Source: a virus (lineage: Duplodnaviria; Caudoviricetes). Taken from it: 61,293 nucleotides of DNA. Location: positions 1 through 61,293 of IMG/VR virus record IMGVR_UViG_3300030430_001440, one strand, 5' to 3'. The translations under genes were made by a program, and so were the position numbers. Positions 1-61,293 of this stretch are shown here, piece by piece. Within the stretch, counting starts at the first letter, position 1. The number at the start of each line of letters is the position of its first letter. A model generated the notes under the pieces. It was not told where the DNA came from, did no database searches, and worked only from the letters and a program-made list of their open reading frames with translations.

Positions 1-136
1 CCAGAGGTGCAGCAAGAAAAAGCTACAAGTTTATTGGCACTATGCCAGAACAAAGTGGTTTTACACCACAAATGTATGCTTTATTACAAACAATTAGTGA
101 AGCTAAAAAGACTGAGCTAGACCCTAACAAGTTTAC
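1..136. repeat. Terminal direct repeat, left copy (contig circularisation overlap)
   Basis: Identical to 61158-61293 except T at 62 versus C (TTT/TTC, both Phe). Confidence 0.95.
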
Positions 137-2607: not shown

Positions 2608-2997
2608 ATGAAAAATTATGATGAAAAAGACGAAATAGGTTATTTAGATGATAATAGTGGTTATCACTGGCACGGTGGTAAATGGAACTATAGACGAGTA
2701 GAACTATGGGCTGAAGAACGTGGTTTATTAGGAGAGTCTAACTTAGCTTCGATACTAACGCCCAAACCTTCTAACGCTCAAACCTTGAAGCTAATGGAAG
2801 AAGTAGGCGAACTAGCTCACGCTGTTGCCTATCGTGACGAACAAGGATTAAAAGATAGTATAGGTGATTGTGCCGTAGTATTGATTATACTAGCAGCACA
2901 AAACGGCATGAAGTTTGAAGATTGTCTCAACTATGCTTGGGATGAAATAAAAAACCGTCAAGGTAAATTGGAGGATGGATTATTTAAGAAAGATTGA
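2608..2997 (+). CDS. MazG-like nucleotide pyrophosphohydrolase
   Basis: KLMEEVGEL...DSIGD...AWDEIKNRQG acidic EExxE..DxxD motif. Confidence 0.8.
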   Translation: MKNYDEKDEIGYLDDNSGYHWHGGKWNYRRVELWAEERGLLGESNLASILTPKPSNAQTLKLMEEVGELAHAVAYRDEQGLKDSIGDCAVVLIILAAQNGMKFEDCLNYAWDEIKNRQGKLEDGLFKKD

Positions 2998-48893: not shown

Positions 48894-50417
48894 ATGTCGT
48901 TAGCTGAAGCGTTCGCAAAACGGTATGCAGGACTACGTTCTGCATACGGAACGTTTACATCTACTAATGAAACACGAGAAGACGGTAAAGCCAGTGGTAG
49001 AAACATTACCATTTCTAAAAATTTAGAAGAAAAAGATGTTATAGATTTATGGACTAAACATCTTAACGGACAACAAAGTTTAGGGATAGTACCTATAAAT
49101 GAAAATAATGAGTGTGTGTGGGGAGCCATCGATGTTGATGAGTATCAATTAGATTTAAAAAGTCTTGCTATCCGACTTGCTCAACAAAAACTCCCACTTG
49201 TGCTTTGTAGAAGCAAAAGCGGTGGTGCTCATATATTTATTTTCTTACTAGAGCCTATCCCTGCCTCTATGTTACAAAGAAAACTTAGACAAGTAGCAGC
49301 ATCCATAGGGTATGGTCAAGCAGAAATATTTCCTAAACAAACAAAACTATTATTAGATAGGGGCGATAGGGGCAGCACATTAAATATGCCTTATTTCGGC
49401 GGAGAAAACTCAACAAGATACGCTTATGGTGAAGAAGGGCAAGCACTTACGCCTAACGAGTTTATAGAGTATATAGATAAAATACAGATAGCACCAAAAC
49501 TTTTAGAACAACTAGAAGCTAGTCCCCTTAATGAAAAACAAGAATGGTTAGATCAGGCACCTCCGTGTATACAACATTTAATAGTACAAGGTTTTCCAAA
49601 AGGCACACGTAATTCAGGCTTGTTTAATGTAGGTGTGTTTTTACGAAAGAAGTTTGCAGACGATTGGGAAAAAAGGTTAGAAGATATAAATATACAATAT
49701 ATGCAACCACCTCTAGGTGCACAAGAAGTTTTAACAGTTATTAAACAACTTAAACGCAAAGATTATTTTTATAAATGTAACGACCAACCCATAGCTAGTC
49801 ATTGCAATAGTCCCTTATGTAGAACTAGAAAATATGGTATCGGTGCTAACGGTGGTACACCTTTATTTAGTAATTTAACAAAACAAGATAGTGATCCACC
49901 CATATGGTTTTTAGATGTTGAAGGTGGTAGACTAGAACTAGAAACAGATGACTTATTAAACCAAAATAGATTTCAACGTAAATGTATGGAAGCCCTTAAT
50001 AAAATACCACCTAAAGTTAAAGATAATGTGTGGAGACAAATAATACAACAATTATTAGATGTTATTACCATAGTAGAAGTTCCTGCCGAAAGTTCTACTG
50101 AAGGACACTTCATGGAATTACTAGAAGCTTTTTGTACTGAACGACCTGCTAGAGAAAGAGATGAGTTATTATTACATAAACCTTGGACTAATAAAGGTAA
50201 AACATATTTTAGACTAGCTGATTTGATGGACTATTTACATAGAAATAATTTTAAAGAATATCAAAGAAATAAACTTACATCTAAACTAAAACAATTAGAA
50301 GGAGAGCCATACTTTTTTAATATAAAAGGCAAAGGTGTAAACGTATGGCATATAAACGAATTTACTACTCAAAGTGAGCCCCACGACTTACCAGAGTTTA
50401 ATGATATGAAAATATGA
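48894..50417 (+). CDS. Primase (AEP-type with PriCT-like domain)
   Basis: WGAIDVD, RSKSGGAH and EIFPKQ motifs; PPC...G.RN..LF. Confidence 0.85.
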   Translation: MSLAEAFAKRYAGLRSAYGTFTSTNETREDGKASGRNITISKNLEEKDVIDLWTKHLNGQQSLGIVPINENNECVWGAIDVDEYQLDLKSLAIRLAQQKLPLVLCRSKSGGAHIFIFLLEPIPASMLQRKLRQVAASIGYGQAEIFPKQTKLLLDRGDRGSTLNMPYFGGENSTRYAYGEEGQALTPNEFIEYIDKIQIAPKLLEQLEASPLNEKQEWLDQAPPCIQHLIVQGFPKGTRNSGLFNVGVFLRKKFADDWEKRLEDINIQYMQPPLGAQEVLTVIKQLKRKDYFYKCNDQPIASHCNSPLCRTRKYGIGANGGTPLFSNLTKQDSDPPIWFLDVEGGRLELETDDLLNQNRFQRKCMEALNKIPPKVKDNVWRQIIQQLLDVITIVEVPAESSTEGHFMELLEAFCTERPARERDELLLHKPWTNKGKTYFRLADLMDYLHRNNFKEYQRNKLTSKLKQLEGEPYFFNIKGKGVNVWHINEFTTQSEPHDLPEFNDMKI

Positions 50418-51001
50418 TAGATTATAAACCAGAGTATTTTAAAAACCAAAACCCAATAATTACTGAATGGGACGAGCCAACTATAAGAGAGTTTAAAGGT
50501 CATAAAGTTTTAGGCAGAAAAACAGCAGGATACGGCAATACATTCGCATACGCAGGTAAAAATTATAAAGGACGTCCATGGTCAGATAATCACCGTATTT
50601 TTAGAATAAAAACTTTAACAGAGCATATGTTGTCAAAAGAATATAACATGGACGTTGAATTTTCTTTTTGTTTATGTGGCTACTACGGCACAAACGGCAA
50701 AGGTATACCACATCACTCAGATACTGTTCCAACACTAGACGATTTAGTTGTTTCTATATCTTTTGGAGCACCTAGAGTTTTTACATGGAGACATTATCAA
50801 AACGCAGTTAAAGTAAAAACAAATACAAGTGAGATAGATACAGTATCAGAAAATTTTATAAAGACAGAAGATACTTATATTTTAAATCATGGCGATGTGT
50901 TAATTTTTGATGGTCATAGCCAAATGAAATCTACTCACGCAGTTCCTGATATGATCGGTGCAGGAGAGAGAATAAATTTAACGTTTAGAACAGGTATATG
51001 A
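50414..51001 (+). CDS. AlkB-like 2OG-Fe(II) dioxygenase
   Basis: HSD, ISFGAPR.F, HAVP and RINLTFR motifs. Confidence 0.9.
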   Translation: MIDYKPEYFKNQNPIITEWDEPTIREFKGHKVLGRKTAGYGNTFAYAGKNYKGRPWSDNHRIFRIKTLTEHMLSKEYNMDVEFSFCLCGYYGTNGKGIPHHSDTVPTLDDLVVSISFGAPRVFTWRHYQNAVKVKTNTSEIDTVSENFIKTEDTYILNHGDVLIFDGHSQMKSTHAVPDMIGAGERINLTFRTGI

Positions 51002-52494: not shown

Positions 52495-52499
52495 AGTTC

Positions 52500-52529
52500 T
52501 TTACTTTGCAATAAAAAGTAAAGTATATT
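52500..52529 (+). promoter_or_regulatory. Promoter of the DNA-modification/polymerase operon
   Basis: TTTACT-N18-TATATT, then AGAAAGGAG RBS. Confidence 0.65.
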
Positions 52530-52552
52530 ATTAATAAAGAAAGGAGGGACGT

Positions 52553-53392
52553 ATGTCTTCGATTAGAAAGAAACTACTCGTTAATGAAAACGATAGTAAA
52601 AATACAAGAATGGATATAGCTAGTGCGGGTGTATTAGCTAATTGGCGACCAGATGAGATAGCTCATATGAGTCGTTTCGACAAGATTGCTTCTATGTGTA
52701 TAGAGGAGTCTAGAAAACTAGGTAGACCACTAGATACTTTTGAAGTTGGTTGTGGGGAGTGTTGGGCTCTTAGAAACTTATACAAGGCTTATGTAATTAA
52801 AAAGTCTGATGTTATACGGTCGTTCTATGGAACAGATATAGACCCTGCTTGTGAAAAAGAATTACCTTATTGGTCGAACGCAGGTGGTAATCTTATGGAC
52901 TCTACATGGTTTAAGAACTTTAATCCACAAATAGTAATACAAGATTTAACAGTTGACCCTGTGTTTAAACTAGAGGACGAAAGTATAGATTTCTTTTGGT
53001 CTACGGAAGTTATTGAACACATGGGTAGAGAGTTTATTCCTGCATGGTTAGATGATGTAGCTAGGGTTATGAGACCTAATGCACTTGGATTCGTGTCTAC
53101 ACCTAACCATGACGGGTCTAACGATAAACTACCTGAAGACCACGTATACGAGTGGGGCTTTCAGGAACTAAAAGAAGAACTAGAAAGAAACTTCGATATA
53201 GTTGCCGTCACAGGAACGTTTATACAGCTACCTAATTTAAAGAAAGCTATGAAAGAGCCCAGTCTAGGGTGGACGCCTGAACAGTTTCAGATGTTACAAA
53301 ATAGATACGGTAAACAGTTTTTAAGAGTAGTTGCTGCTACGTTTTATCCAGAGTATGCAAATAACTGTTCATGGGTGTTACGTAAAAAGTAA
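52553..53392 (+). CDS. Class I SAM-dependent methyltransferase (small-molecule type)
   Basis: EVGCGE motif I, GTDID, STEVIEHM and STPN. Confidence 0.85.
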   Translation: MSSIRKKLLVNENDSKNTRMDIASAGVLANWRPDEIAHMSRFDKIASMCIEESRKLGRPLDTFEVGCGECWALRNLYKAYVIKKSDVIRSFYGTDIDPACEKELPYWSNAGGNLMDSTWFKNFNPQIVIQDLTVDPVFKLEDESIDFFWSTEVIEHMGREFIPAWLDDVARVMRPNALGFVSTPNHDGSNDKLPEDHVYEWGFQELKEELERNFDIVAVTGTFIQLPNLKKAMKEPSLGWTPEQFQMLQNRYGKQFLRVVAATFYPEYANNCSWVLRKK

Positions 53393-54291
53393 TGTTTATT
53401 CAAGAAGAACTTGATAGATACTTGTATTGGCAAGTAGAAAGAGAAAACATCAGACTACAGAAGGAAGTCTCTAACCTTCCCGCTCCTTGGACTGATGATC
53501 GGATACTACAACAATATAAGTTCTGTCAAGTTTTTCGTGAAGAAGATAGGACTACTAGGTGGTTTAAAAAACATATTAGAGAGCCTATGCGAGAAAATAC
53601 AGATGTTCTTATGGCTACTGTAATTTTTAGATGGTTTAATTGGATACCTACAGGAAGAACTCTTATAGAACATAATTTACTTACAAATTGGGATAGGAAG
53701 AAAGCTATAAAAGAAATAAGTAAACAAGATAAGTGGGTAACAGGAGCATATATAGTAAAGTCTCCTAATGGTATGGATAAAGTTACAGGAGTAGCAGAGT
53801 GTATTACTCATATGTGGGAACGTAAAAATTATATGCTAGAAAAACTAGAGGAAGCAGTAATGAATAATACAAGCACATTAAAGTATTGTTGGGATTTATT
53901 GAGAGAATACCCATACATGGGACCATTTATGGCGTATGAAGTTGTAACAGATTTACGATTTACTTATTTATTAGATGAAGCTAAAGATAAACTAACATGG
54001 GCTAATGCAGGTCCAGGAGCAATGCGAGGGCTAAATAGATTAACAGGTAGACCATTAGATTTTTGTCAACGTAGTCATGATTGGTGTAGTGAGATGACAG
54101 CTCTATACGATATAGCTAAAGAACGATTACCCGCACACATAACAAAAAGGAACGATTTACCTTATGAACTTAGAGAGATAGAAGGCGGTCTATGTGAGTT
54201 TGATAAATACTCACGTATATATAAAGGGGAAGGTAGAACGAGGTCAATTTATAAACACGATGATACATTACCATTAATAGAGGGTTTATGA
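53392..54291 (+). CDS. aGPT-Pplase1 / 5-hmdU DNA kinase-family protein
   Basis: ERE.IR...PWTDD.IL..YKFC.V.RE.DR.T, FRWFN, GPFMAYEVVTDL, GPGA.RGL and E..LCEFDKY motifs. Confidence 0.85.
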   Translation: MFIQEELDRYLYWQVERENIRLQKEVSNLPAPWTDDRILQQYKFCQVFREEDRTTRWFKKHIREPMRENTDVLMATVIFRWFNWIPTGRTLIEHNLLTNWDRKKAIKEISKQDKWVTGAYIVKSPNGMDKVTGVAECITHMWERKNYMLEKLEEAVMNNTSTLKYCWDLLREYPYMGPFMAYEVVTDLRFTYLLDEAKDKLTWANAGPGAMRGLNRLTGRPLDFCQRSHDWCSEMTALYDIAKERLPAHITKRNDLPYELREIEGGLCEFDKYSRIYKGEGRTRSIYKHDDTLPLIEGL

Positions 54292-54437
54292 ATTGTTGGC
54301 ATTGTAATACAGAATTAATATGGGGTGCAGACCATGATATAGAACAAGAAGATTCAGAATATATGATGGAAACCAATTTAAGTTGTCCGAGCTGTGGCTC
54401 TTTTGTCATGGTTTATTTACCAAAGGAGAAAGTATGA
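54288..54437 (+). CDS. 49-aa zinc-ribbon protein (not in ORF track)
   Basis: MNCWHCNTELIWGADHD...LSCPSCGS; ATGA overlaps at both ends. Confidence 0.8.
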   Translation: MNCWHCNTELIWGADHDIEQEDSEYMMETNLSCPSCGSFVMVYLPKEKV

Positions 54438-55468
54438 AAATTATAACAGCAAGAAATGTAAATGGTGCTATACTTAGAGGCATTGATTTATTTAAAGATG
54501 AAATAAATTATAGAGAACAAGAAAGTAGAAACGGTAAAACTTTAGAGGCAGTAGAGCCTGTTACAACGACATACCTTAGACCTACAGAAAGAGTTTGTTT
54601 AATACCTGAAAGAGACGCTAATCCTTTTTTCCATTTTATAGAAAGTATGTGGATGTTAGCAGGTAGAAACGATTTAGAATCATTGACTTATTATGTAGCA
54701 AGTATGTCTAATTTTTCAGATGATGGTGAAACTCTATGGGGTGCTTATGGTTATAGGTGGCGACAGTATTTTCATAAAGACCAACTAGATATGATTGTAA
54801 AACTATTAAAAGAAAATCCTGATGATAGACGTGCAGTATTACAAATGTGGGACGCTAATAAAGATTTAGCTAGAGTAAGTAAAGACGTGCCATGTAATAC
54901 GAATATATATTTTAAAATAAGAGACGGTGTCTTAAATATGACAGTATGTAATAGGTCTAACGATATGTTATGGGGTGCGTATGGTGCTAACGTGGTACAT
55001 ATGTCAGTTTTGCAAGAACTTATAGCACACAGACTTGGTGTGCCTGTTGGTGTTTATAGACAAGTAAGTGATAGCTTTCATGTCTACCTTAATGAGGTAT
55101 GGGATAGAGTAAAAGATTTATCTTTAGATGCATACGCTATTAGATCAGCAGCAAACCCATATGATACGCTTTATAATTACAAACCCAGTGATTTATTTAT
55201 AGAACATGATTGTTTAGATTTTGAGCATGAAAGGTTTTTTAATTATCATCCTGCTGATATCGTAGCTGCTGATAATTGGGTAAATCCATGTTATAGAGAT
55301 ATTGCAGTTCCTATGGCTCATACATACTACTTATATAAAACAGGTAAGTATACAGAGGCTTACGAACATTGTAACAAAATAGTTCCAGAAGATTGGAAAG
55401 ACGCTTGTCTTAGTTGGCTCCGCACACGAGAAGAGCGTAGAAATAAACTAGCGGAAAAAGGAGAATAA
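54434..55468 (+). CDS. Thymidylate synthase-family enzyme, likely dUMP hydroxymethyltransferase
   Basis: DVPCN catalytic Cys; RSNDMLWGAYGAN with the dUMP-type Asn; SFHVY; start at ATG 54434 after AAAGGAG. Confidence 0.85.
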   Translation: MKIITARNVNGAILRGIDLFKDEINYREQESRNGKTLEAVEPVTTTYLRPTERVCLIPERDANPFFHFIESMWMLAGRNDLESLTYYVASMSNFSDDGETLWGAYGYRWRQYFHKDQLDMIVKLLKENPDDRRAVLQMWDANKDLARVSKDVPCNTNIYFKIRDGVLNMTVCNRSNDMLWGAYGANVVHMSVLQELIAHRLGVPVGVYRQVSDSFHVYLNEVWDRVKDLSLDAYAIRSAANPYDTLYNYKPSDLFIEHDCLDFEHERFFNYHPADIVAADNWVNPCYRDIAVPMAHTYYLYKTGKYTEAYEHCNKIVPEDWKDACLSWLRTREERRNKLAEKGE

Positions 55469-55469
55469 T

Positions 55470-55820
55470 ATGAGTGCAGATTTTAATCTTATGAAAGAGG
55501 TCGCACAACAAGATTTACAAGCTCTACAACGAGCTGAACAATCTTACGGCGATTCTTGGAAAAGACGTGGCGGTGTCGGTGCTTTTATGATGTTAGCCCG
55601 TAAGTTCGATAGGATAGAACACCAGTCGAAAAAACACGGGTGGGACGTCTTCGAAGCTGGTGCTGTCTATAGTGGCGAAGCAGGTCTACTAGACGATATA
55701 CGAGACTTGCGTAGATACTTATTACTTGTAGAACAAGAAATACTAGCACAAGAAATAGAAGAAAATATTCCTTACGAAAACGAAGGAGACAATACTAACG
55801 AACAGGAGGAAACATCATGA
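55470..55820 (+). CDS. Nucleotide-modification-associated all-alpha pyrophosphatase-like protein (Nmad1/DUF1599-like)
   Basis: YGDSW...RKFDRIE...DDIRDL..Y motif. Confidence 0.6.
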   Translation: MSADFNLMKEVAQQDLQALQRAEQSYGDSWKRRGGVGAFMMLARKFDRIEHQSKKHGWDVFEAGAVYSGEAGLLDDIRDLRRYLLLVEQEILAQEIEENIPYENEGDNTNEQEETS

Positions 55821-56122
55821 GTTGGTTTAAAAAGATAATAGACTTTTTCACACCTAAAATGGAAGGTGAAGCAGAAGTAGCGAAAGCAAAAAAACTTTTA
55901 AAAGAGGCAGAAGTCTTAGATGCAGCAATTGAAGAGGCTACGATAGAACTAGAGCCTATTACAAAAGCAGCAGGTAAGGTAGAAAAAATAGTACCTGTAA
56001 AACCTAAACGTGCAAGAACTAAAAAAGGCAGATATAAAGCAGACGATAAGTCTACTCCAGATTTTAATGAAGCATGGGAAGGCGGTAAAGCACCTAAGAA
56101 AAAGACTAAAAAGAAAAAGTGA
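55817..56122 (+). CDS. Hypothetical protein with basic tail
   Basis: RAR.KKGRY.ADD.STPD.NEAW. Confidence 0.75.
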   Translation: MSWFKKIIDFFTPKMEGEAEVAKAKKLLKEAEVLDAAIEEATIELEPITKAAGKVEKIVPVKPKRARTKKGRYKADDKSTPDFNEAWEGGKAPKKKTKKKK

Positions 56123-57990
56123 TTTTACAGACGCCTATGCCTTTATTTACACCTAAAAGTTCTTGGTCAGTTCCTGATGTATTTCCTCAATTTACTCCTG
56201 ATGAAACAATAGCAATCGACCTTGAAACATATGATCCTGACCTCACTATTAATGGTCCAGGATGGGCTACAGGAAAAGGTTATATTGTCGGTGTAGGTGT
56301 AGCTACTCAAGACTGGGTGGGTTATTTTCCTATCAGACACGAGGGTGGTGGTAATTTAGATGAGGGTATGGTTTTACGGTGGCTCAAAAACGTTTTATCT
56401 ACTCAACGTAAAGTAATTTTCCACAATGCTTTATATGATGTTGGGTGGTTAAAAAGGGAGGGCATTGATATTCACGGACGAGTTCTGGACACTATCATTG
56501 CCGCTCCTCTTTTAGACGAAAATAGATTTTCATATTCATTAGACAATCTTGGTAAAGATTGGTGTGATGAAACTAAAGACGAGAGTTTATTACAAGACGC
56601 TGCACTAGCTTATGGTTGTAATCCTAAAAGTGAGATGTATCGTTTACCTGCAAAATTTGTTGGACCGTATGGAGAACAAGACGCTAAACTTACGTATAAG
56701 CTATGGCATACTTTAGAACAACAAATTAAAGAACAAAGTTTAGAAAAAGTTCTAGAAATGGAACTTAATCTTATACCTCTACTTATCGAAATGAGATGGA
56801 GAGGAGTGAGGGTAGATACTAATAAAGCAGATGAAATAAGTGATCGTCTATCTAAAGAAGAACAATTAATACAGGTAGAAATAAAAAGAAAGTATGGCAC
56901 AGATGTAAATCTATGGGCTAACGCTTCTTTACAAAATATTTTCGACAACAACGATTTATGGTATCCACGAACAGAAAAAGGTACGCCTAGTTTTCAAAGG
57001 CAGTGGTTAGAAGGACACGAACATGAGTTGCCTAAATTAATTGTTAGAGCTAGAAAACTTAATAAAGCAAGGACAACGTTTATAGATAAAATGATAGGAG
57101 ATCATATATTTAACGGTCGTATACACGCTGAAGCTCACCCTATGCGTAATGATAGAGGTGGCACAGTAAGTGGTAGATTTAGTTATAGCAATCCTAATCT
57201 ACAACAAGTTCCTGCTCGTGATCCAGAAATAGGTAATTTAATTAGGTCGTTGTTTATACCAGAAGATGGTTGTCAGTGGGGAGCTTTCGATTATTCTCAA
57301 CAAGAGCCAAGACTGACAGTGCATTACGCTAACGAAATGAGTTTAGTAGGGGCGAAAGAAGCCGTACAACAATATACAGAAGAAAGTGCAGACTTTCATC
57401 AAATAGTTGCAGATATGGCTAATATACCACGTAAACAGGCAAAGACGATTAACTTAGGATTAAGTTACGGAATGGGAAAAGAAAAACTAATTAATGAATT
57501 AGGACTAGACGAGTTCGAAGCAGAGAAGCTATTTCAACAGTATCACGAAAAGGTGCCGTTTATCAAAGCTCTACAAGATCAATGCACTCGGATAGCTAAT
57601 CTAAAAGGATTTATAAAAACTATTGGTGGACGTAGATGTCGTTTCGATTTATGGGAGAGTAAATTTGAAAGAACTACACCACTAGCAAAAGAAGAAGCAA
57701 TTAATAAATATGGCGATGAACTTAAACGTTCATTTACTTATAAAGCACTCAATCGTTTGATACAAGGCTCTGCGGCAGACATGACTAAACTAGCTATGAT
57801 AGAACTATGGAAGGAAGGCATTGTCCCACACTTGCAAATACATGACGAGGTAGATATATCTATTGAAAATCATGCTCAGGCTAAAAAAGTCGTAGAGGTT
57901 ATGGAGAACTGTGTAAAAATCGCAGTACCTCTATTAGTCGACGCAGAGCTTGGTCAATCGTGGGGGGAAGTTAAGGAGATAACTCTATGA
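56119..57990 (+). CDS. polA: DNA polymerase family A with 3'-5' exonuclease
   Basis: DLET and HNALYD (exonuclease); DYSQQEPR, KTINLGLSYG and QIHDE (polymerase). Confidence 0.95.
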   Translation: MILQTPMPLFTPKSSWSVPDVFPQFTPDETIAIDLETYDPDLTINGPGWATGKGYIVGVGVATQDWVGYFPIRHEGGGNLDEGMVLRWLKNVLSTQRKVIFHNALYDVGWLKREGIDIHGRVLDTIIAAPLLDENRFSYSLDNLGKDWCDETKDESLLQDAALAYGCNPKSEMYRLPAKFVGPYGEQDAKLTYKLWHTLEQQIKEQSLEKVLEMELNLIPLLIEMRWRGVRVDTNKADEISDRLSKEEQLIQVEIKRKYGTDVNLWANASLQNIFDNNDLWYPRTEKGTPSFQRQWLEGHEHELPKLIVRARKLNKARTTFIDKMIGDHIFNGRIHAEAHPMRNDRGGTVSGRFSYSNPNLQQVPARDPEIGNLIRSLFIPEDGCQWGAFDYSQQEPRLTVHYANEMSLVGAKEAVQQYTEESADFHQIVADMANIPRKQAKTINLGLSYGMGKEKLINELGLDEFEAEKLFQQYHEKVPFIKALQDQCTRIANLKGFIKTIGGRRCRFDLWESKFERTTPLAKEEAINKYGDELKRSFTYKALNRLIQGSAADMTKLAMIELWKEGIVPHLQIHDEVDISIENHAQAKKVVEVMENCVKIAVPLLVDAELGQSWGEVKEITL

Positions 57991-58331
57991 GAGGTATAAC
58001 ACCACAAAAGAAAGCAGAAAGTCAAGAAAAATATACAAAAATATTTGAGCAATGGAAACTTCAAGATACTACTCTACTCGAATTAGCAATAGAATATGAT
58101 TTGACTAAACAACGTATATGGCAAATTATAACAAGATGTAAACTCGGTGATGGTGATTACTATGTTGGTGTTCAAGTTGCACGTAATAAATGGAACGAGT
58201 TAAATAAAACGTACGATGATTTTGAGGAAGTATCTACTAAATATAATACATGGTTAAAGACTAAAGGTGTAAAAACTAGTGTAAATAACCAATCAGTTGT
58301 TCCACATAGCGGATGGGACTGGAAATACTAA
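57987..58331 (+). CDS. HTH protein (sigma region 4-like)
   Basis: TLLELAIEYDLTKQRIWQII. Confidence 0.65.
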   Translation: MRGITPQKKAESQEKYTKIFEQWKLQDTTLLELAIEYDLTKQRIWQIITRCKLGDGDYYVGVQVARNKWNELNKTYDDFEEVSTKYNTWLKTKGVKTSVNNQSVVPHSGWDWKY

Positions 58332-61048: not shown

Positions 61049-61293
61049 ATGCGAACAGCAACTACTTCTAAAACGAAAAAAATGCCACCAAAGGTTGTTG
61101 CAGACAAACCTTTAAGTAAGGCTTCAGTGACGAAAGTCCCAAAGCCTGTTGCAAAAACCAGAGGTGCAGCAAGAAAAAGCTACAAGTTTATTGGCACTAT
61201 GCCAGAACAAAGTGGTTTCACACCACAAATGTATGCTTTATTACAAACAATTAGTGAAGCTAAAAAGACTGAGCTAGACCCTAACAAGTTTAC
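61049..61293 (+). CDS. 5' part of a 122-aa protein spanning the circular junction (continues at 1..260); paralog of 7993 and 8611
   Basis: ATG 61049 after AGAAAGGAG; reads MRTATTSKTKKMPPKVV...SYKFIGTMPEQ in frame with ORF 42..260. Confidence 0.85.
   Translation, partial: MRTATTSKTKKMPPKVVADKPLSKASVTKVPKPVAKTRGAARKSYKFIGTMPEQSGFTPQMYALLQTISEAKKTELDPNKF
61158..61293. repeat. Terminal direct repeat, right copy
   Basis: Matches 1-136 with one mismatch. Confidence 0.95.

What the first reader, a model, noticed from the sequence alone, without database searches (positions are those of the whole stretch)
52500..57990. Thymidine-hypermodification operon with a SAM methyltransferase in place of the usual amino acid:DNA transferase
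Seen: one promoter precedes tightly coupled genes for a SAM methyltransferase, an aGPT-Pplase1/5-hmdU-kinase-family protein, a 49-aa zinc ribbon, a thymidylate synthase-family enzyme with the dUMP-specific Asn (RSNDMLWGAYGAN), an Nmad1-like protein and PolA. The methyltransferase stop overlaps the kinase start. Known: phages such as ViI, M6 and PhiW-14 incorporate 5-hmdU, phosphorylate it on DNA, then displace the phosphate using an amino acid:DNA transferase, often with PLP or radical-SAM tailoring enzymes. I recognise none of those downstream enzymes in this complete genome. The methyltransferase has small-molecule-type motifs (EVGCG, EVIEH, STPN) and no DPPY/NPPY or C5 methyltransferase motifs. 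Inference: the phage may make an undescribed thymine derivative, for example a methyl-capped 5-phosphomethyl-dU or 5-methoxymethyl-dU.
Basis: partly seen in the sequence, partly recalled or inferred. Interest (0 to 1): 0.88.

Follow-up and report, generated by a model that had tools for sequence, protein, structure and literature searches.

The report
Kinase-less thymidine-modification cassette with a methyltransferase
A marine phage carries a small gene cassette that probably replaces thymine with a 5-hydroxymethyluracil-derived base, and where related phages use a DNA kinase or a sugar transferase it has a virus-specific methyltransferase, which points to a DNA base that has not yet been described.

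Summary
The reading is only partly right.

**What the genes are**
- The 299-aa protein is Pfam PF18723, the old "aGPT-Pplase clade 1". It is an all-helical, DNA-glycosylase-like paralogue of the amino acid:DNA transferase (AADT).
- It keeps AADT's catalytic Glu-x3-Cys. It is not a kinase.
- The complete 61.3-kb genome has no P-loop 5-hmdU DNA kinase, no clade-2 AADT and no radical-SAM enzyme.
- Its single thymidylate-synthase homologue belongs with the dUMP hydroxymethylases of M6, PaMx11, ViI and PhiJL001, and has the uracil-type Asn.

**The methyltransferase**
- It sits exactly where PaMx11 has its kinase.
- It lies directly upstream of PF18723 in 80 of 80 related viral contigs.
- Among 79 PF18723 loci, methyltransferase (42), kinase (16) and glucosyltransferase (8) never occur together.
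- Distant relatives of the methyltransferase lie beside TS-family genes in 4 of 4 other phages (cytosine-type in the two aligned). Two are fused to C5 DNA methylases.

**Best reading**
This is a new variant of thymidine hypermodification. 5-hmdU is made and then tailored by methylation. 5-methoxymethyl-dU is the simplest product, and it is unproven. The synthase/PF18723 pair in these pelagiphages is already published. The methyltransferase partner and the lack of a kinase appear not to be.

The parts
52495..52552 (+). 58-nt gap before the cassette. It holds a 9-bp inverted repeat, a sigma-70-like match (52500-52529) and a strong ribosome-binding site 6 nt before the ATG.
   Evidence: The promoter match is at chance frequency, so a function is not shown. 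This is the only gap longer than 9 nt between 47229 and 58331.
52553..53392 (+). Virus-specific class I SAM-dependent methyltransferase, 279 aa. Proposed tailoring enzyme.
   Evidence: Pfam Methyltransf_11 31.3 bits (cut-off 21.2) and Methyltransf_23 27.6 bits (cut-off 27). AF2 model pLDDT 81.7 with a Rossmann fold. Nearest solved folds are small-molecule, sugar-O and RNA methyltransferases, TM about 0.5. Directly upstream of PF18723 in 80 of 80 loci.
53392..54291 (+). PF18723 protein (aGPT-Pplase clade 1, named 'HMUDK_hel' in Pfam), 299 aa. Helix-hairpin-helix glycosylase-like paralogue of the amino acid:DNA transferase.
   Evidence: PF18723 at 157 bits, E 8e-46. 43% identical to PaMx11 gp50. 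AF2 pLDDT 91.2, all helical. VIA Z 10.5 to PaMx11 gp46 (8z2n), tied with DUF2419 and MjOgg. E264 and C268 invariant in 17 diverse homologues.
54288..54437 (+). 49-aa CxxC...CxxC zinc-ribbon-like ORF. Not a fixed part of the cassette.
   Evidence: Only sub-threshold Pfam zinc-ribbon hits. Found at this position in 1 of 80 relatives (L004). In 11 others a homologue lies between the oxygenase and helicase genes instead.
54434..55468 (+). Thymidylate-synthase-family enzyme, 344 aa from the ATG. Predicted dUMP 5-hydroxymethylase.
   Evidence: PF00303 E 3.8e-24. Best solved relative is MilA CMP hydroxymethylase at 2e-27, against 8e-15 for the best true thymidylate synthase. 44% identical to PaMx11 gp51 and 42% to PhiJL001 gp24 over the full length. 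Asn at the base-specificity position. The only TS-family gene in the genome, and no ThyX. The ATG at 54434 matches the N-termini of the relatives; the ORF listing offered TTG at 54383.
55470..55820 (+). 116-aa acidic ORF that travels with the cassette.
   Evidence: Present after the synthase gene in 77 of 80 loci; the 3 misses are at contig ends. Also found in many non-methyltransferase PF18723 loci. No credible Pfam family. DUF1599 is a lead only.
55817..56122 (+). 101-aa basic, Lys-rich ORF, poorly conserved.
   Evidence: No Pfam or PHROG hit. 40-96% identity where it is found, and absent from the more distant relatives.
56119..57990 (+). Family A DNA polymerase with 3'-5' exonuclease. It must accept the modified dNTP.
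   Evidence: PF00476 E 3e-62 and PF01612 E 3.9e-10. Nearest records are phage 023Pt_psg01 at 54% and Pelagibacter phage HTVC023P at 48.5%.

Best explanation
Bases 52553-56122 are an accessory cassette of about 3.6 kb. It lies between the helicase and polymerase genes of an HTVC023P-type marine phage and changes the thymine of the phage DNA.

Step 1 (inferred from family membership): the thymidylate-synthase homologue turns dUMP into 5-hydroxymethyl-dUMP.

Step 2 (inferred): host kinases and the phage PolA put it into DNA as 5-hmdU. The phage encodes no nucleotide kinase.

Step 3 (inferred from gene linkage and comparative genomics): the SAM methyltransferase tailors the base. It may act alone or with the translationally coupled PF18723 protein, which I read as a base-flipping enzyme that attacks C6 through a thiol. 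The simplest product is 5-methoxymethyl-dU, by O-methylation of the hydroxymethyl group. That is the same hydroxyl that kinases phosphorylate and glucosyltransferases glycosylate in sister cassettes.

No phosphorylated intermediate and no amino-acid transfer are involved, because the kinase and the clade-2 transferase are absent. I put about 0.5 on 'methyltransferase-tailored 5-hmdU-derived base' and about 0.3 on the specific product 5-methoxymethyl-dU.
For: **Synthase homologue**
- It falls in the clade of T-hypermodifying phages and has the uracil-type Asn.
- It is the only TS-family gene in the genome, and there is no ThyX.

**Missing enzymes**
- No PF18748 kinase, PF18724 transferase, thymidylate kinase or radical-SAM match in the 100%-complete genome.
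- The only P-loops are the two helicases.
- The same kinase and transferase models do hit PaMx11 and Rhodoferax phage P26218. They miss two further complete or near-complete genomes of this lineage.

**Methyltransferase linkage**
- It lies directly upstream of PF18723 in 80 of 80 loci, at 61-96% methyltransferase identity.
- The arrangement, with the two genes still adjoining, holds in a sister lineage at 52-55% identity.
- PaMx11 has its kinase in exactly this position, also with a 1-nt overlap.

**Alternative partners**
- In 79 PF18723 loci, within +/-5 kb, 42 have this methyltransferase only, 16 a kinase (9 of them with AADT), 8 a PhiJL001-type glucosyltransferase and 13 none of these. There were no mixed cases.

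**Accessory nature**
- The nearest deposited relative by PolA (023Pt_psg01) goes from helicase to PolA without the cassette.

**Wider methyltransferase family**
- All 4 distinct phages that the 50,697-record phage collection returns for this methyltransferase have it next to NTP pyrophosphatase, sometimes a dNMP kinase, a TS-family gene and dCMP deaminase.
- Two long relatives are fusions to a C5-cytosine DNA methylase domain and carry the family's own motifs.
- The nearest Atlas clusters are 95-100% viral.

**PF18723 protein**
- It keeps the Glu-x3-Cys that is essential in AADT (mutagenesis in PMC8989533, passages read).
Against: - Nothing here shows a modified base. No raw reads or native-DNA data were available.
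- The methyltransferase is acidic (pI 5.3) and has no recognisable DNA-binding domain. It resembles small-molecule methyltransferases most, so it may act on a free nucleotide or on something unrelated to DNA.
- The link to the AXL3-type genes rests on 23-26% identity. The two synthase homologues of that group that I aligned are cytosine-type, so the shared substrate is an extrapolation.
- The PF18723 homologue was not needed for hypermodification in vitro in M6 (PMC8989533). Its role is unknown.
- Many of the 80 and 42 loci are close relatives, so the counts are not independent events.
- The 80 PF18723 loci are the best 80 of at least 575.
- O-methylation of a DNA base hydroxymethyl group has no described precedent in the papers I could search.
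Confidence: 0.5

Rival explanations
1. The PF18723 protein is the real transferase. Like its clade-2 paralogue, it attacks C6 with Cys268, expels water (or methanol after O-methylation) from 5-hmdU without prior phosphorylation, and adds an unknown nucleophile. The methyltransferase then methylates the appended group, for example giving an N-methylated aminomethyl-dU, or it prepares the leaving group.
For: - Glu264 and Cys268 are invariant across 17 diverse PF18723 proteins. They align with E243 and C247 of PaMx11 gp46.
- A second collinear motif aligns in the profile-profile comparison.
- gp46 is the top Foldseek hit, and VIA gives Z 10.5 over 221 residues.
- The ADDT model weakly hits the PhiJL001 PF18723 protein, E 7.8e-4.
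- PF18723 occurs without any kinase in this lineage and in PhiJL001.
Against: - Profile-profile probabilities are low, 0.4% and 5%.
- The structural Z is tied with unrelated glycosylases.
- AXL3-type phages have the methyltransferase relative without PF18723 (0 of 4), so that methyltransferase family does not need it.
- No donor for the nucleophile is encoded nearby.
Confidence: 0.15
2. Methylation happens before replication. The methyltransferase converts 5-hm-dUMP (or the di- or triphosphate) into a methylated nucleotide that PolA incorporates. The PF18723 protein has a separate job on DNA.
For: - The fold is closest to small-molecule methyltransferases, and there is no DNA-binding domain. 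The pI is acidic.
- Relatives in AXL3-type phages sit within a pre-replicative nucleotide cluster of NTP pyrophosphatase, dNMP kinase, TS homologue and deaminase.
Against: - This phage encodes no nucleotide kinase for an unusual dNMP.
- The gene is translationally coupled to a DNA-glycosylase-like protein.
- Two family members are fused to a C5 DNA methylase, which acts on DNA.
Confidence: 0.15
3. Ordinary reading. The DNA carries plain 5-hmdU or even normal T, because the synthase homologue is a true thymidylate synthase. The methyltransferase has an unrelated target, such as a host or phage protein, RNA or a metabolite.
For: - No chemical data exist.
- The methyltransferase fold is generic.
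- The region occurs in contigs of 20 marine short-read runs from 7 studies, so the DNA is not hard to sequence.
Against: - The synthase homologue is far closer to hydroxymethylases and to the homologues of T-hypermodifying phages than to true synthases.
- The cassette moves as a unit.
- The methyltransferase family is tied to TS-family genes in four further phages, and two members are fused to C5 DNA methylases.
Confidence: 0.12
4. The PF18723 protein phosphorylates 5-hmdU on DNA and the methyltransferase caps the phosphate, giving a methyl-phosphomethyl-dU.
For: - Pfam names PF18723 '5-hmdU DNA kinase, helical domain'.
- 3 of 5 long homologues are fusions of a thymidylate-kinase-like P-loop domain with PF18723.
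Against: - The 299-aa protein has no Walker A motif. It is all-helical with a glycosylase fold.
- The proven kinases are the P-loop proteins (PMC8989533). In the fusions the P-loop part is a separate domain that is absent here.
- PF18748 and PF02223 give no match in the genome.
Confidence: 0.04

Closest known systems
Thymidine hypermodification clusters of Pseudomonas phages M6 and PaMx11 (Lee et al. 2018, 2021; PMC5889632 and PMC8989533, passages read)
   Same: Same core and order next to PolA: PF18723 protein (43% identical to PaMx11 gp50), then the TS-family hydroxymethylase (44% identical to gp51), then small ORFs, then PolA (39%). The gene upstream of PF18723 overlaps it by one base in both.
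   Different: PaMx11 has a clade-2 transferase (gp46), an FAD lyase, an acetyltransferase, a P-loop kinase (gp49) and an HD nucleotidase. None has a homologue here. Here a SAM methyltransferase occupies the kinase position.
Thymidylate synthase plus aGPT-Pplase1 'partner genes' of HTVC023P-type pelagiphages (PMC9599517, passages read)
   Same: The same two genes lie near PolA, and the paper already links them to M6-like hypermodification.
   Different: The word 'methyltransferase' does not occur in that paper's main text, and the two 'kinase' mentions I saw concern a histidine kinase. The kinase-less state and the methyltransferase partner are not discussed there. I could not see its supplements.
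Alphaproteobacteria phage PhiJL001 cluster
   Same: PF18723 (40%) plus the TS homologue (42%) plus PolA, with no P-loop kinase and no clade-2 transferase above cut-off.
   Different: PhiJL001 carries a T6-like glucosyltransferase and an Nmad5 protein instead of the methyltransferase.
Stenotrophomonas phage AXL3 nucleotide cluster (PMC7504290, passages read)
   Same: It has a methyltransferase of the same family, with shared family-specific motifs and 26% identity, next to a TS-family gene. AXL3 DNA resists 35 of 37 restriction enzymes by an unknown modification.
   Different: Its synthase homologue has the cytosine-type Asp. The cluster adds NTP pyrophosphatase, a dNMP kinase and dCMP deaminase, and has no PF18723. 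Only the two enzymes whose recognition sites contain only A and T cut its DNA, which points to a C or G modification rather than a T modification.
T-even phage 5-hydroxymethylcytosine glucosylation (textbook knowledge, recalled)
   Same: Same logic: a TS-family hydroxymethylase makes a hydroxymethyl pyrimidine that is incorporated, and its hydroxyl is then decorated on DNA.
   Different: There the base is cytosine and the decoration is glucose from UDP-glucose. Here the base is uracil and a methyl group from SAM is proposed.

Membership tests
5-hmdU DNA kinase (P-loop, Pfam PF18748), tested for the 299-aa protein and for the whole genome | P-loop / Walker A nucleotide-binding fold | tested here: not met
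   No Walker A in the 299-aa ORF. The only convincing P-loops in six frames are the UvrD and SNF2 helicases. The model is all-helical.
5-hmdU DNA kinase (P-loop, Pfam PF18748), tested for the 299-aa protein and for the whole genome | Match to the family model | tested here: not met
   PF18748 gives 0 matches at E <= 10 in the genome. The same model hits PaMx11 at 9.4e-5 and P26218 at 3.2e-8. PF02223 gives none.
aGPT-Pplase clade 1 (Pfam PF18723 'HMUDK_hel') | Match to the family model over the curated cut-off | tested here: met
   157 bits against a cut-off of 25, covering profile positions 4-276 of 281. Six-frame search gives 156.8 bits.
aGPT-Pplase clade 1 (Pfam PF18723 'HMUDK_hel') | Helix-hairpin-helix DNA-glycosylase-like fold | tested here: met
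   VIA Z 8-11 to DUF2419, PaMx11 gp46, MjOgg, EndoIII and MagIII over 170-232 residues. The invariant Gly-Pro-Gly hairpin motif is present.
Amino acid:DNA transferase (clade 2 aGPT-Pplase, Pfam PF18724) | Match to the family model | tested here: not met
   0 matches at E <= 10 in the genome. The model hits PaMx11 at 3.3e-29 and P26218 at 4.8e-50.
Amino acid:DNA transferase (clade 2 aGPT-Pplase, Pfam PF18724) | Catalytic Glu and Cys (E243 and C247 of PaMx11 gp46) | tested here: met
   E264 and C268 align to them in the only hhalign segment. They are invariant in 17 PF18723 proteins. The alignment probability is low, so the equivalence rests on motif, order and fold.
Amino acid:DNA transferase (clade 2 aGPT-Pplase, Pfam PF18724) | Works on 5-phosphomethyl-dU made by a co-encoded kinase | tested here: not met
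   No kinase is encoded.
dUMP 5-hydroxymethylase (thymidylate synthase superfamily) | TS fold with the catalytic Cys | tested here: met
   PF00303 at 85.7 bits. The Pro-Cys of the active-site loop is invariant in the 5-way alignment.
dUMP 5-hydroxymethylase (thymidylate synthase superfamily) | Uracil-specific Asn rather than cytosine-specific Asp | tested here: met
   Asn here, in PaMx11 gp51 and in PhiJL001 gp24. Asp in the AXL3 and MW202510 homologues and in MilA.
dUMP 5-hydroxymethylase (thymidylate synthase superfamily) | Product is 5-hm-dUMP, not dTMP | not testable with these tools
   Only indirect evidence. The best solved relative is a hydroxymethylase. Full-length relatives are confined to phages with known or predicted 5-hmdU-derived bases.
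Class I SAM-dependent methyltransferase | Rossmann fold with a Gly-rich SAM loop and an acidic residue after strand 2 | tested here: met
   Pfam hits over cut-off. GCG and the Asp of the DID segment are invariant in 28 sequences. The model is a seven-strand Rossmann fold with at least 500 Foldseek matches to class I methyltransferases.
DNA amino- or C5-methyltransferases | (D/N/S)PP(Y/F/W) motif, or the PF00145 C5 core with a target-recognition domain | tested here: not met
   No such motif in the sequence or its 28-way alignment. No PF00145 or N6/N4 family in the Pfam scan.
Nmad1 / DUF1599 (the 116-aa ORF) | Match to the family model | tested here: inconclusive
   No DUF1599 hit at E <= 10. 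One neighbouring Atlas cluster, score 0.97, has DUF1599 on 11% of its members. That Nmad1 equals DUF1599 is recalled, not checked.

The most novel reading that the evidence does not exclude
This virus-specific class I methyltransferase family O-methylates 5-hydroxymethylpyrimidines of phage DNA. The result would be 5-methoxymethyluracil in an abundant group of marine HTVC023P-type phages, and possibly 5-methoxymethylcytosine in AXL3-like phages. That would be a new natural DNA base and a third way, besides phosphorylation and glycosylation, of decorating the hydroxymethyl handle. The PF18723 protein would act as a kinase-independent base-flipping partner.
Probability: 0.25. Interest if true: 0.85.

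Novelty: new variant of a known kind. Interest (0 to 1): 0.7.

Why it matters
Thymidine hypermodification is so far understood as kinase, then amino acid:DNA transferase, then tailoring. This cassette keeps the hydroxymethylase and the still-uncharacterised clade-1 paralogue, but drops the kinase and the transferase and adds a methyltransferase.

If the prediction holds, three things follow:
- It would add a new DNA base chemistry.
- It would give a first functional handle on PF18723, which Pfam currently labels as part of a kinase although it occurs without one.
- It would give a function to a methyltransferase family that also sits in the unexplained, restriction-resistant genome of the cultured phage AXL3.

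The lineage is common in marine metagenomes. At least 119 viral contigs carry this methyltransferase, and 20 runs from 7 studies hold part of the stretch. The base could therefore be widespread in the ocean virome, and it could matter for restriction evasion and for reading native-DNA sequencing signals.

Tried and rejected
**Complex prediction.** The methyltransferase was folded with the PF18723 protein, each as a 28-row alignment. The result was 'no answer', score 0.00 in two runs, and the controls were not folded. I draw nothing from it.

**Context of the intermediate methyltransferase relatives (P0006-P0050).**
- It found nothing for P0017.
- With the smaller alignment A4 it returned mostly the same lineage.

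**Methyltransferase substrate from structure.**
- Foldseek gives only generic class I matches, TM about 0.5.
- Sequence search of solved structures found nothing better than E 0.07.

**PF18723 protein against solved structures.**
- No sequence match at E <= 1.
- Foldseek E >= 0.22.
- VIA cannot separate the transferase gp46 from DUF2419 or Ogg; Z is 10-11 for all.

**Profile-profile comparison of PF18723 with the transferase family.** Low probabilities, 0.4% and 5%. Only two short collinear motifs align.

**Other searches.**
- PADLOC: the methyltransferase hits 'mad2' at 1e-9. I read this as generic methyltransferase-domain similarity.
- Upstream ORFs of 10 other PF18723 loci: 9 had no Pfam family and one was an HD nucleotidase.
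- Sequencing runs: all 24 listed are kept as contigs, not raw reads. No signal of modification could be sought, and read laying was not used.

**Literature.**
- No paper in the library holds all three of '5-methoxymethyl', 'bacteriophage' and 'deoxyuridine'.
- 'methoxymethyl' did not occur in any of the 15 listed phage-modification papers.
- Iyer et al. 2013, which defined these families, is not held. What I say of it comes from Lee et al.'s summary and from recall.
- Supplementary files were not consulted. Those of PMC9599517 (orthogroup tables, trees) and PMC8989533 (contig maps) might already list this methyltransferase.

Full report
**What the window is.** The window is a whole virus record of 61,293 bases, rated 100% complete. 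Its last 136 bases repeat its first 136 with one mismatch. G+C is about 36%. Its PolA is nearest to phage 023Pt_psg01 (54%), Phage DSL-LC04 (48.6%) and Pelagibacter phages HTVC023P (48.5%) and HTVC027P (46.6%). Parts of the finding's stretch occur in contigs of 20 marine runs from 7 studies.

**The observation.** From 52553 to 58331 eight + strand genes follow each other with junctions of -1, -4, -4, +1, -4, -4 and -4 nt. They are preceded by the only sizeable gap of the region, 58 nt. That gap holds a 9-bp inverted repeat, one sigma-70-like match and a strong ribosome-binding site. The promoter match is no better than chance: 29 matches against 33.8 +/- 5.9 in shuffles.

Pfam gives the following:
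- Methyltransferase: Methyltransf_11 and Methyltransf_23, both over cut-off.
- 299-aa protein: PF18723, E 8e-46.
- 344-aa protein: Thymidylat_synt, E 3.8e-24.
- Polymerase: DNA_pol_A with its exonuclease domain.

The 49-aa ORF gives only sub-threshold zinc-ribbon hits. The 116-aa ORF gives no credible family even at E <= 10. A language-model neighbour cluster has DUF1599 on 11% of its members, which is a lead only.

**The 299-aa protein is not a kinase.** Lee et al. showed that the 5-hmdU DNA kinases are P-loop proteins and that clade-2 aGPT-Pplases are the amino acid:DNA transferases (PMC8989533, passages and Table 1 read). In PaMx11 the kinase is gp49. Its Pfam hits are AAA_33, Zeta_toxin and a weak PF18748. 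The homologue of the 299-aa protein is the next gene, gp50, which is PF18723 and 43% identical.

The 299-aa protein has no Walker A motif. Its AF2 model (pLDDT 91.2) is all-helical. Its best structural matches, at Z 10-11, are the queuine-salvage enzyme DUF2419, the transferase gp46 of PaMx11 (Z 10.5, 221 residues, rmsd 4.1) and archaeal Ogg, followed by many helix-hairpin-helix glycosylases. gp46 is also the top Foldseek hit, though only at E 0.22.

Evidence that the fold is related to the transferase:
- The only hhalign segment between the family and gp46 aligns E264 and C268 with gp46's E243 and C247. Both residues are invariant in 17 diverse PF18723 proteins.
- A second, collinear Gly-Pro-aromatic motif aligns in the profile-profile comparison.
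- The ADDT model weakly hits the PhiJL001 PF18723 protein, E 7.8e-4.

Mutating that Glu or Cys abolishes transferase activity in M6 gp51 and ViI gp247 (PMC8989533). I therefore read the 299-aa protein as an active clade-1 paralogue of the transferase. Its reaction is unknown. Lysates containing only the M6 kinase (gp54) and transferase (gp51), without the M6 PF18723 homologue gp55 among others, were sufficient to form the glycinylated intermediate in vitro.

The Pfam name has an explanation. 3 of 5 long homologues are fusions of a thymidylate-kinase-like domain with PF18723. In those fusions the kinase part is a separate domain that is absent here.

**What is missing.** All of these gave no match in the genome: PF18748 at E <= 10, PF18724 at E <= 10, and thymidylate kinase, ThyX, dCMP deaminase and radical SAM, each at E <= 1. 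As controls, PF18748 and PF18724 do find the kinase and the transferase of PaMx11 and of Rhodoferax phage P26218. They find nothing in two further genomes of this lineage, rated 95% and 100% complete. tblastn with the PaMx11, PhiJL001 and P26218 accessory proteins found nothing in the window at E <= 0.01.

**The synthase homologue.** It is the only TS-family gene in the genome.
- Its best solved relative is the CMP hydroxymethylase MilA, at 2e-27. The best true thymidylate synthase scores 8e-15.
- Full-length matches in the phage collection are confined to M6-like phages (42-44%), P26218 (37.5%) and PhiJL001 (42%). Ackermannviridae follow at about 35%. True phage synthases match only partly, at 25-30%.
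- At the base-specificity position it has Asn, as do PaMx11 gp51 and PhiJL001 gp24. MilA and the AXL3-type homologues have Asp.

That it makes 5-hm-dUMP is an inference from this placement.

**The methyltransferase.** The deep search found 265 clusters at E <= 1e-3 and 19 at E <= 1e-30 among 1.84 billion representatives. The ten nearest Atlas clusters are 95-100% viral. The AF2 model (pLDDT 81.7) is a Rossmann fold. Two highly conserved segments, residues 11-29 and 188-198, are modelled with low confidence. Structural neighbours are small-molecule, sugar-O-, lipid and RNA methyltransferases at TM about 0.5, which does not name a substrate. It has no DNA amino-methyltransferase motif and no C5-methylase core.

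**Linkage within the lineage.** IMG/VR holds at least 119 relatives of the methyltransferase. In the 80 loci kept (61-96% identity):
- The PF18723 gene follows directly in 80 of 80.
- The synthase homologue follows in 78 of 80. The two misses end at the contig edge.
- PolA follows in 77 of 80. The three misses are also at contig ends.

These are one lineage with a syntenic replication module, so the counts are not independent. Two further facts help. The nearest deposited relative by PolA, 023Pt_psg01, goes primase, helicase, two small ORFs, PolA, with no cassette. So the cassette is accessory. A sister lineage with only 52-55% methyltransferase identity and 55-57% PolA identity keeps the methyltransferase and PF18723 genes adjoining.

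**Linkage across lineages.** A scan with a PF18723 alignment found at least 575 relatives and kept the best 80. I classed 79 of them by tblastn within +/-5 kb:

| Partner found | Loci |
|---|---|
| This methyltransferase only | 42 |
| P-loop kinase (9 of them also with the clade-2 transferase) | 16 |
| PhiJL001-type glucosyltransferase | 8 |
| None of these | 13 |

No locus combined the methyltransferase with a kinase, a transferase or the glucosyltransferase. The gene immediately upstream of PF18723 (less than 200 nt away) was the methyltransferase in 38 loci and the kinase in 11. One related lineage without this methyltransferase has an FkbM-type methyltransferase (PF05050, 3e-13) directly after PF18723, plus a weak glycosyltransferase match.

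The picture is a constant core of hydroxymethylase plus PF18723 with interchangeable enzymes. Where those enzymes are understood, they act on the hydroxymethyl group.

**The methyltransferase family elsewhere.** In the 50,697-record phage collection the window's methyltransferase hits 3 distinct phages (4 records). Intermediate relatives add one more. In all 4 the gene lies next to an NTP pyrophosphatase, a TS-family gene and a dCMP deaminase. In two of them a dNMP kinase lies between. None has PF18723 (0 of 4). The synthase homologues of the two that I aligned (AXL3 and MW202510) are cytosine-type.

AXL3 DNA resisted 35 of 37 restriction enzymes and was cut only by the two enzymes whose sites contain only A and T. 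The modification is unknown (PMC7504290, passages read). Two long relatives (849 and 878 aa) fuse an N-terminal domain with this family's own motifs to a C5-cytosine DNA methylase domain. A 2026 paper lists O-methyltransferases among domains that co-occur with phage thymine and 5mC dioxygenases, without naming a product (PMC13229309, passages read).

Three kinds of association therefore tie the family to C5-substituted pyrimidines of phage DNA. The remote members share only 23-26% identity with the window's enzyme.

**Mechanism proposed.**
- Shown: gene content, order, coupling, family membership, conserved residues, absences and co-occurrence.
- Inferred: dUMP is hydroxymethylated, phosphorylated by host enzymes and incorporated by PolA. 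The methyltransferase then methylates the 5-hydroxymethyl group, or a group installed by the PF18723 protein. The PF18723 protein flips the base and may use Cys268 at C6.
- The MazG-like gene at 2608-2997 may help to bias the nucleotide pool. This is untested.

**Comparison and novelty.** The synthase/aGPT-Pplase1 pair of HTVC023P-type phages and its likeness to M6 are in print (PMC9599517). I found no mention of the methyltransferase partner in its main text, and no paper on a methoxymethyl pyrimidine in phage DNA. Supplements could not be seen, and Iyer et al. 2013 could not be read. I class the finding as a new variant of a known kind of system. It has a testable prediction, and a cultured handle in AXL3 for the wider methyltransferase family.

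Noticed in passing
window 50414-51001 (+): An AlkB-like 2OG-Fe(II) oxygenase (PF13532, E 7e-18) lies between the primase and helicase genes. It is not TET/JBP-like by Pfam. It is variable (46-99% identity) or absent among relatives.
   Followed up: partly
window 2608-2997 (+): A MazG-type nucleotide pyrophosphohydrolase (PF03819, E 3e-7) in the early region. It could clear dTTP or dUTP from the pool in a phage that lacks the HD nucleotidase of M6-like phages.
   Followed up: no
L085 (Stenotrophomonas phage AXL3) 6851-9993; also L084, L094, L095: A conserved cluster of family-related methyltransferase, NTP pyrophosphatase, sometimes a dNMP kinase, a TS homologue (cytosine-type in the two aligned, L084 and L085) and dCMP deaminase, in 4 phages. 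AXL3 DNA is known to resist 35 of 37 restriction enzymes, and the base responsible is unidentified.
   Followed up: partly
proteins P0120 (849 aa) and P0139 (878 aa): Fusions of an AXL3-type class I methyltransferase domain with a C5-cytosine DNA methylase domain (PF00145). Their genomic context could not be fetched.
   Followed up: partly
L109 4980-8096 (and L110, L112-L115): A related marine lineage has PF18723 followed by an FkbM-type methyltransferase, a p116-like ORF and a 445-aa protein with a weak glycosyltransferase match, then the synthase homologue. This may be a methylated-sugar thymidine modification.
   Followed up: partly
Pfam PF18723 in general; L003 (PhiJL001), window, G001, G002: The family that Pfam names '5-hmdU DNA kinase, helical domain' occurs in complete phage genomes that have no P-loop kinase. 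The name is misleading for stand-alone members.
   Followed up: yes
window 54288-54437, and e.g. L021 4296-4439: The 49-aa zinc-ribbon ORF changes place among relatives. It lies between PF18723 and the synthase gene here and in L004, but between the oxygenase and helicase genes in 11 other loci.
   Followed up: partly
window 1-136 and 61158-61293: The last 136 bases repeat the first 136 with one mismatch. This indicates a circular or terminally redundant assembly, although the record is classed as linear.
   Followed up: yes
window 52495-52552: A perfect 9-bp inverted repeat lies in the gap just before the methyltransferase gene, overlapping the promoter-like match. It could be an operator or an RNA hairpin. 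Its conservation was not examined.
   Followed up: no
L097 (Rhodoferax phage P26218) 4555-7562: A minimal cassette of clade-2 transferase, P-loop kinase, synthase homologue and HD nucleotidase, without PF18723. All four genes are annotated as hypothetical or as thymidylate synthase.
   Followed up: partly
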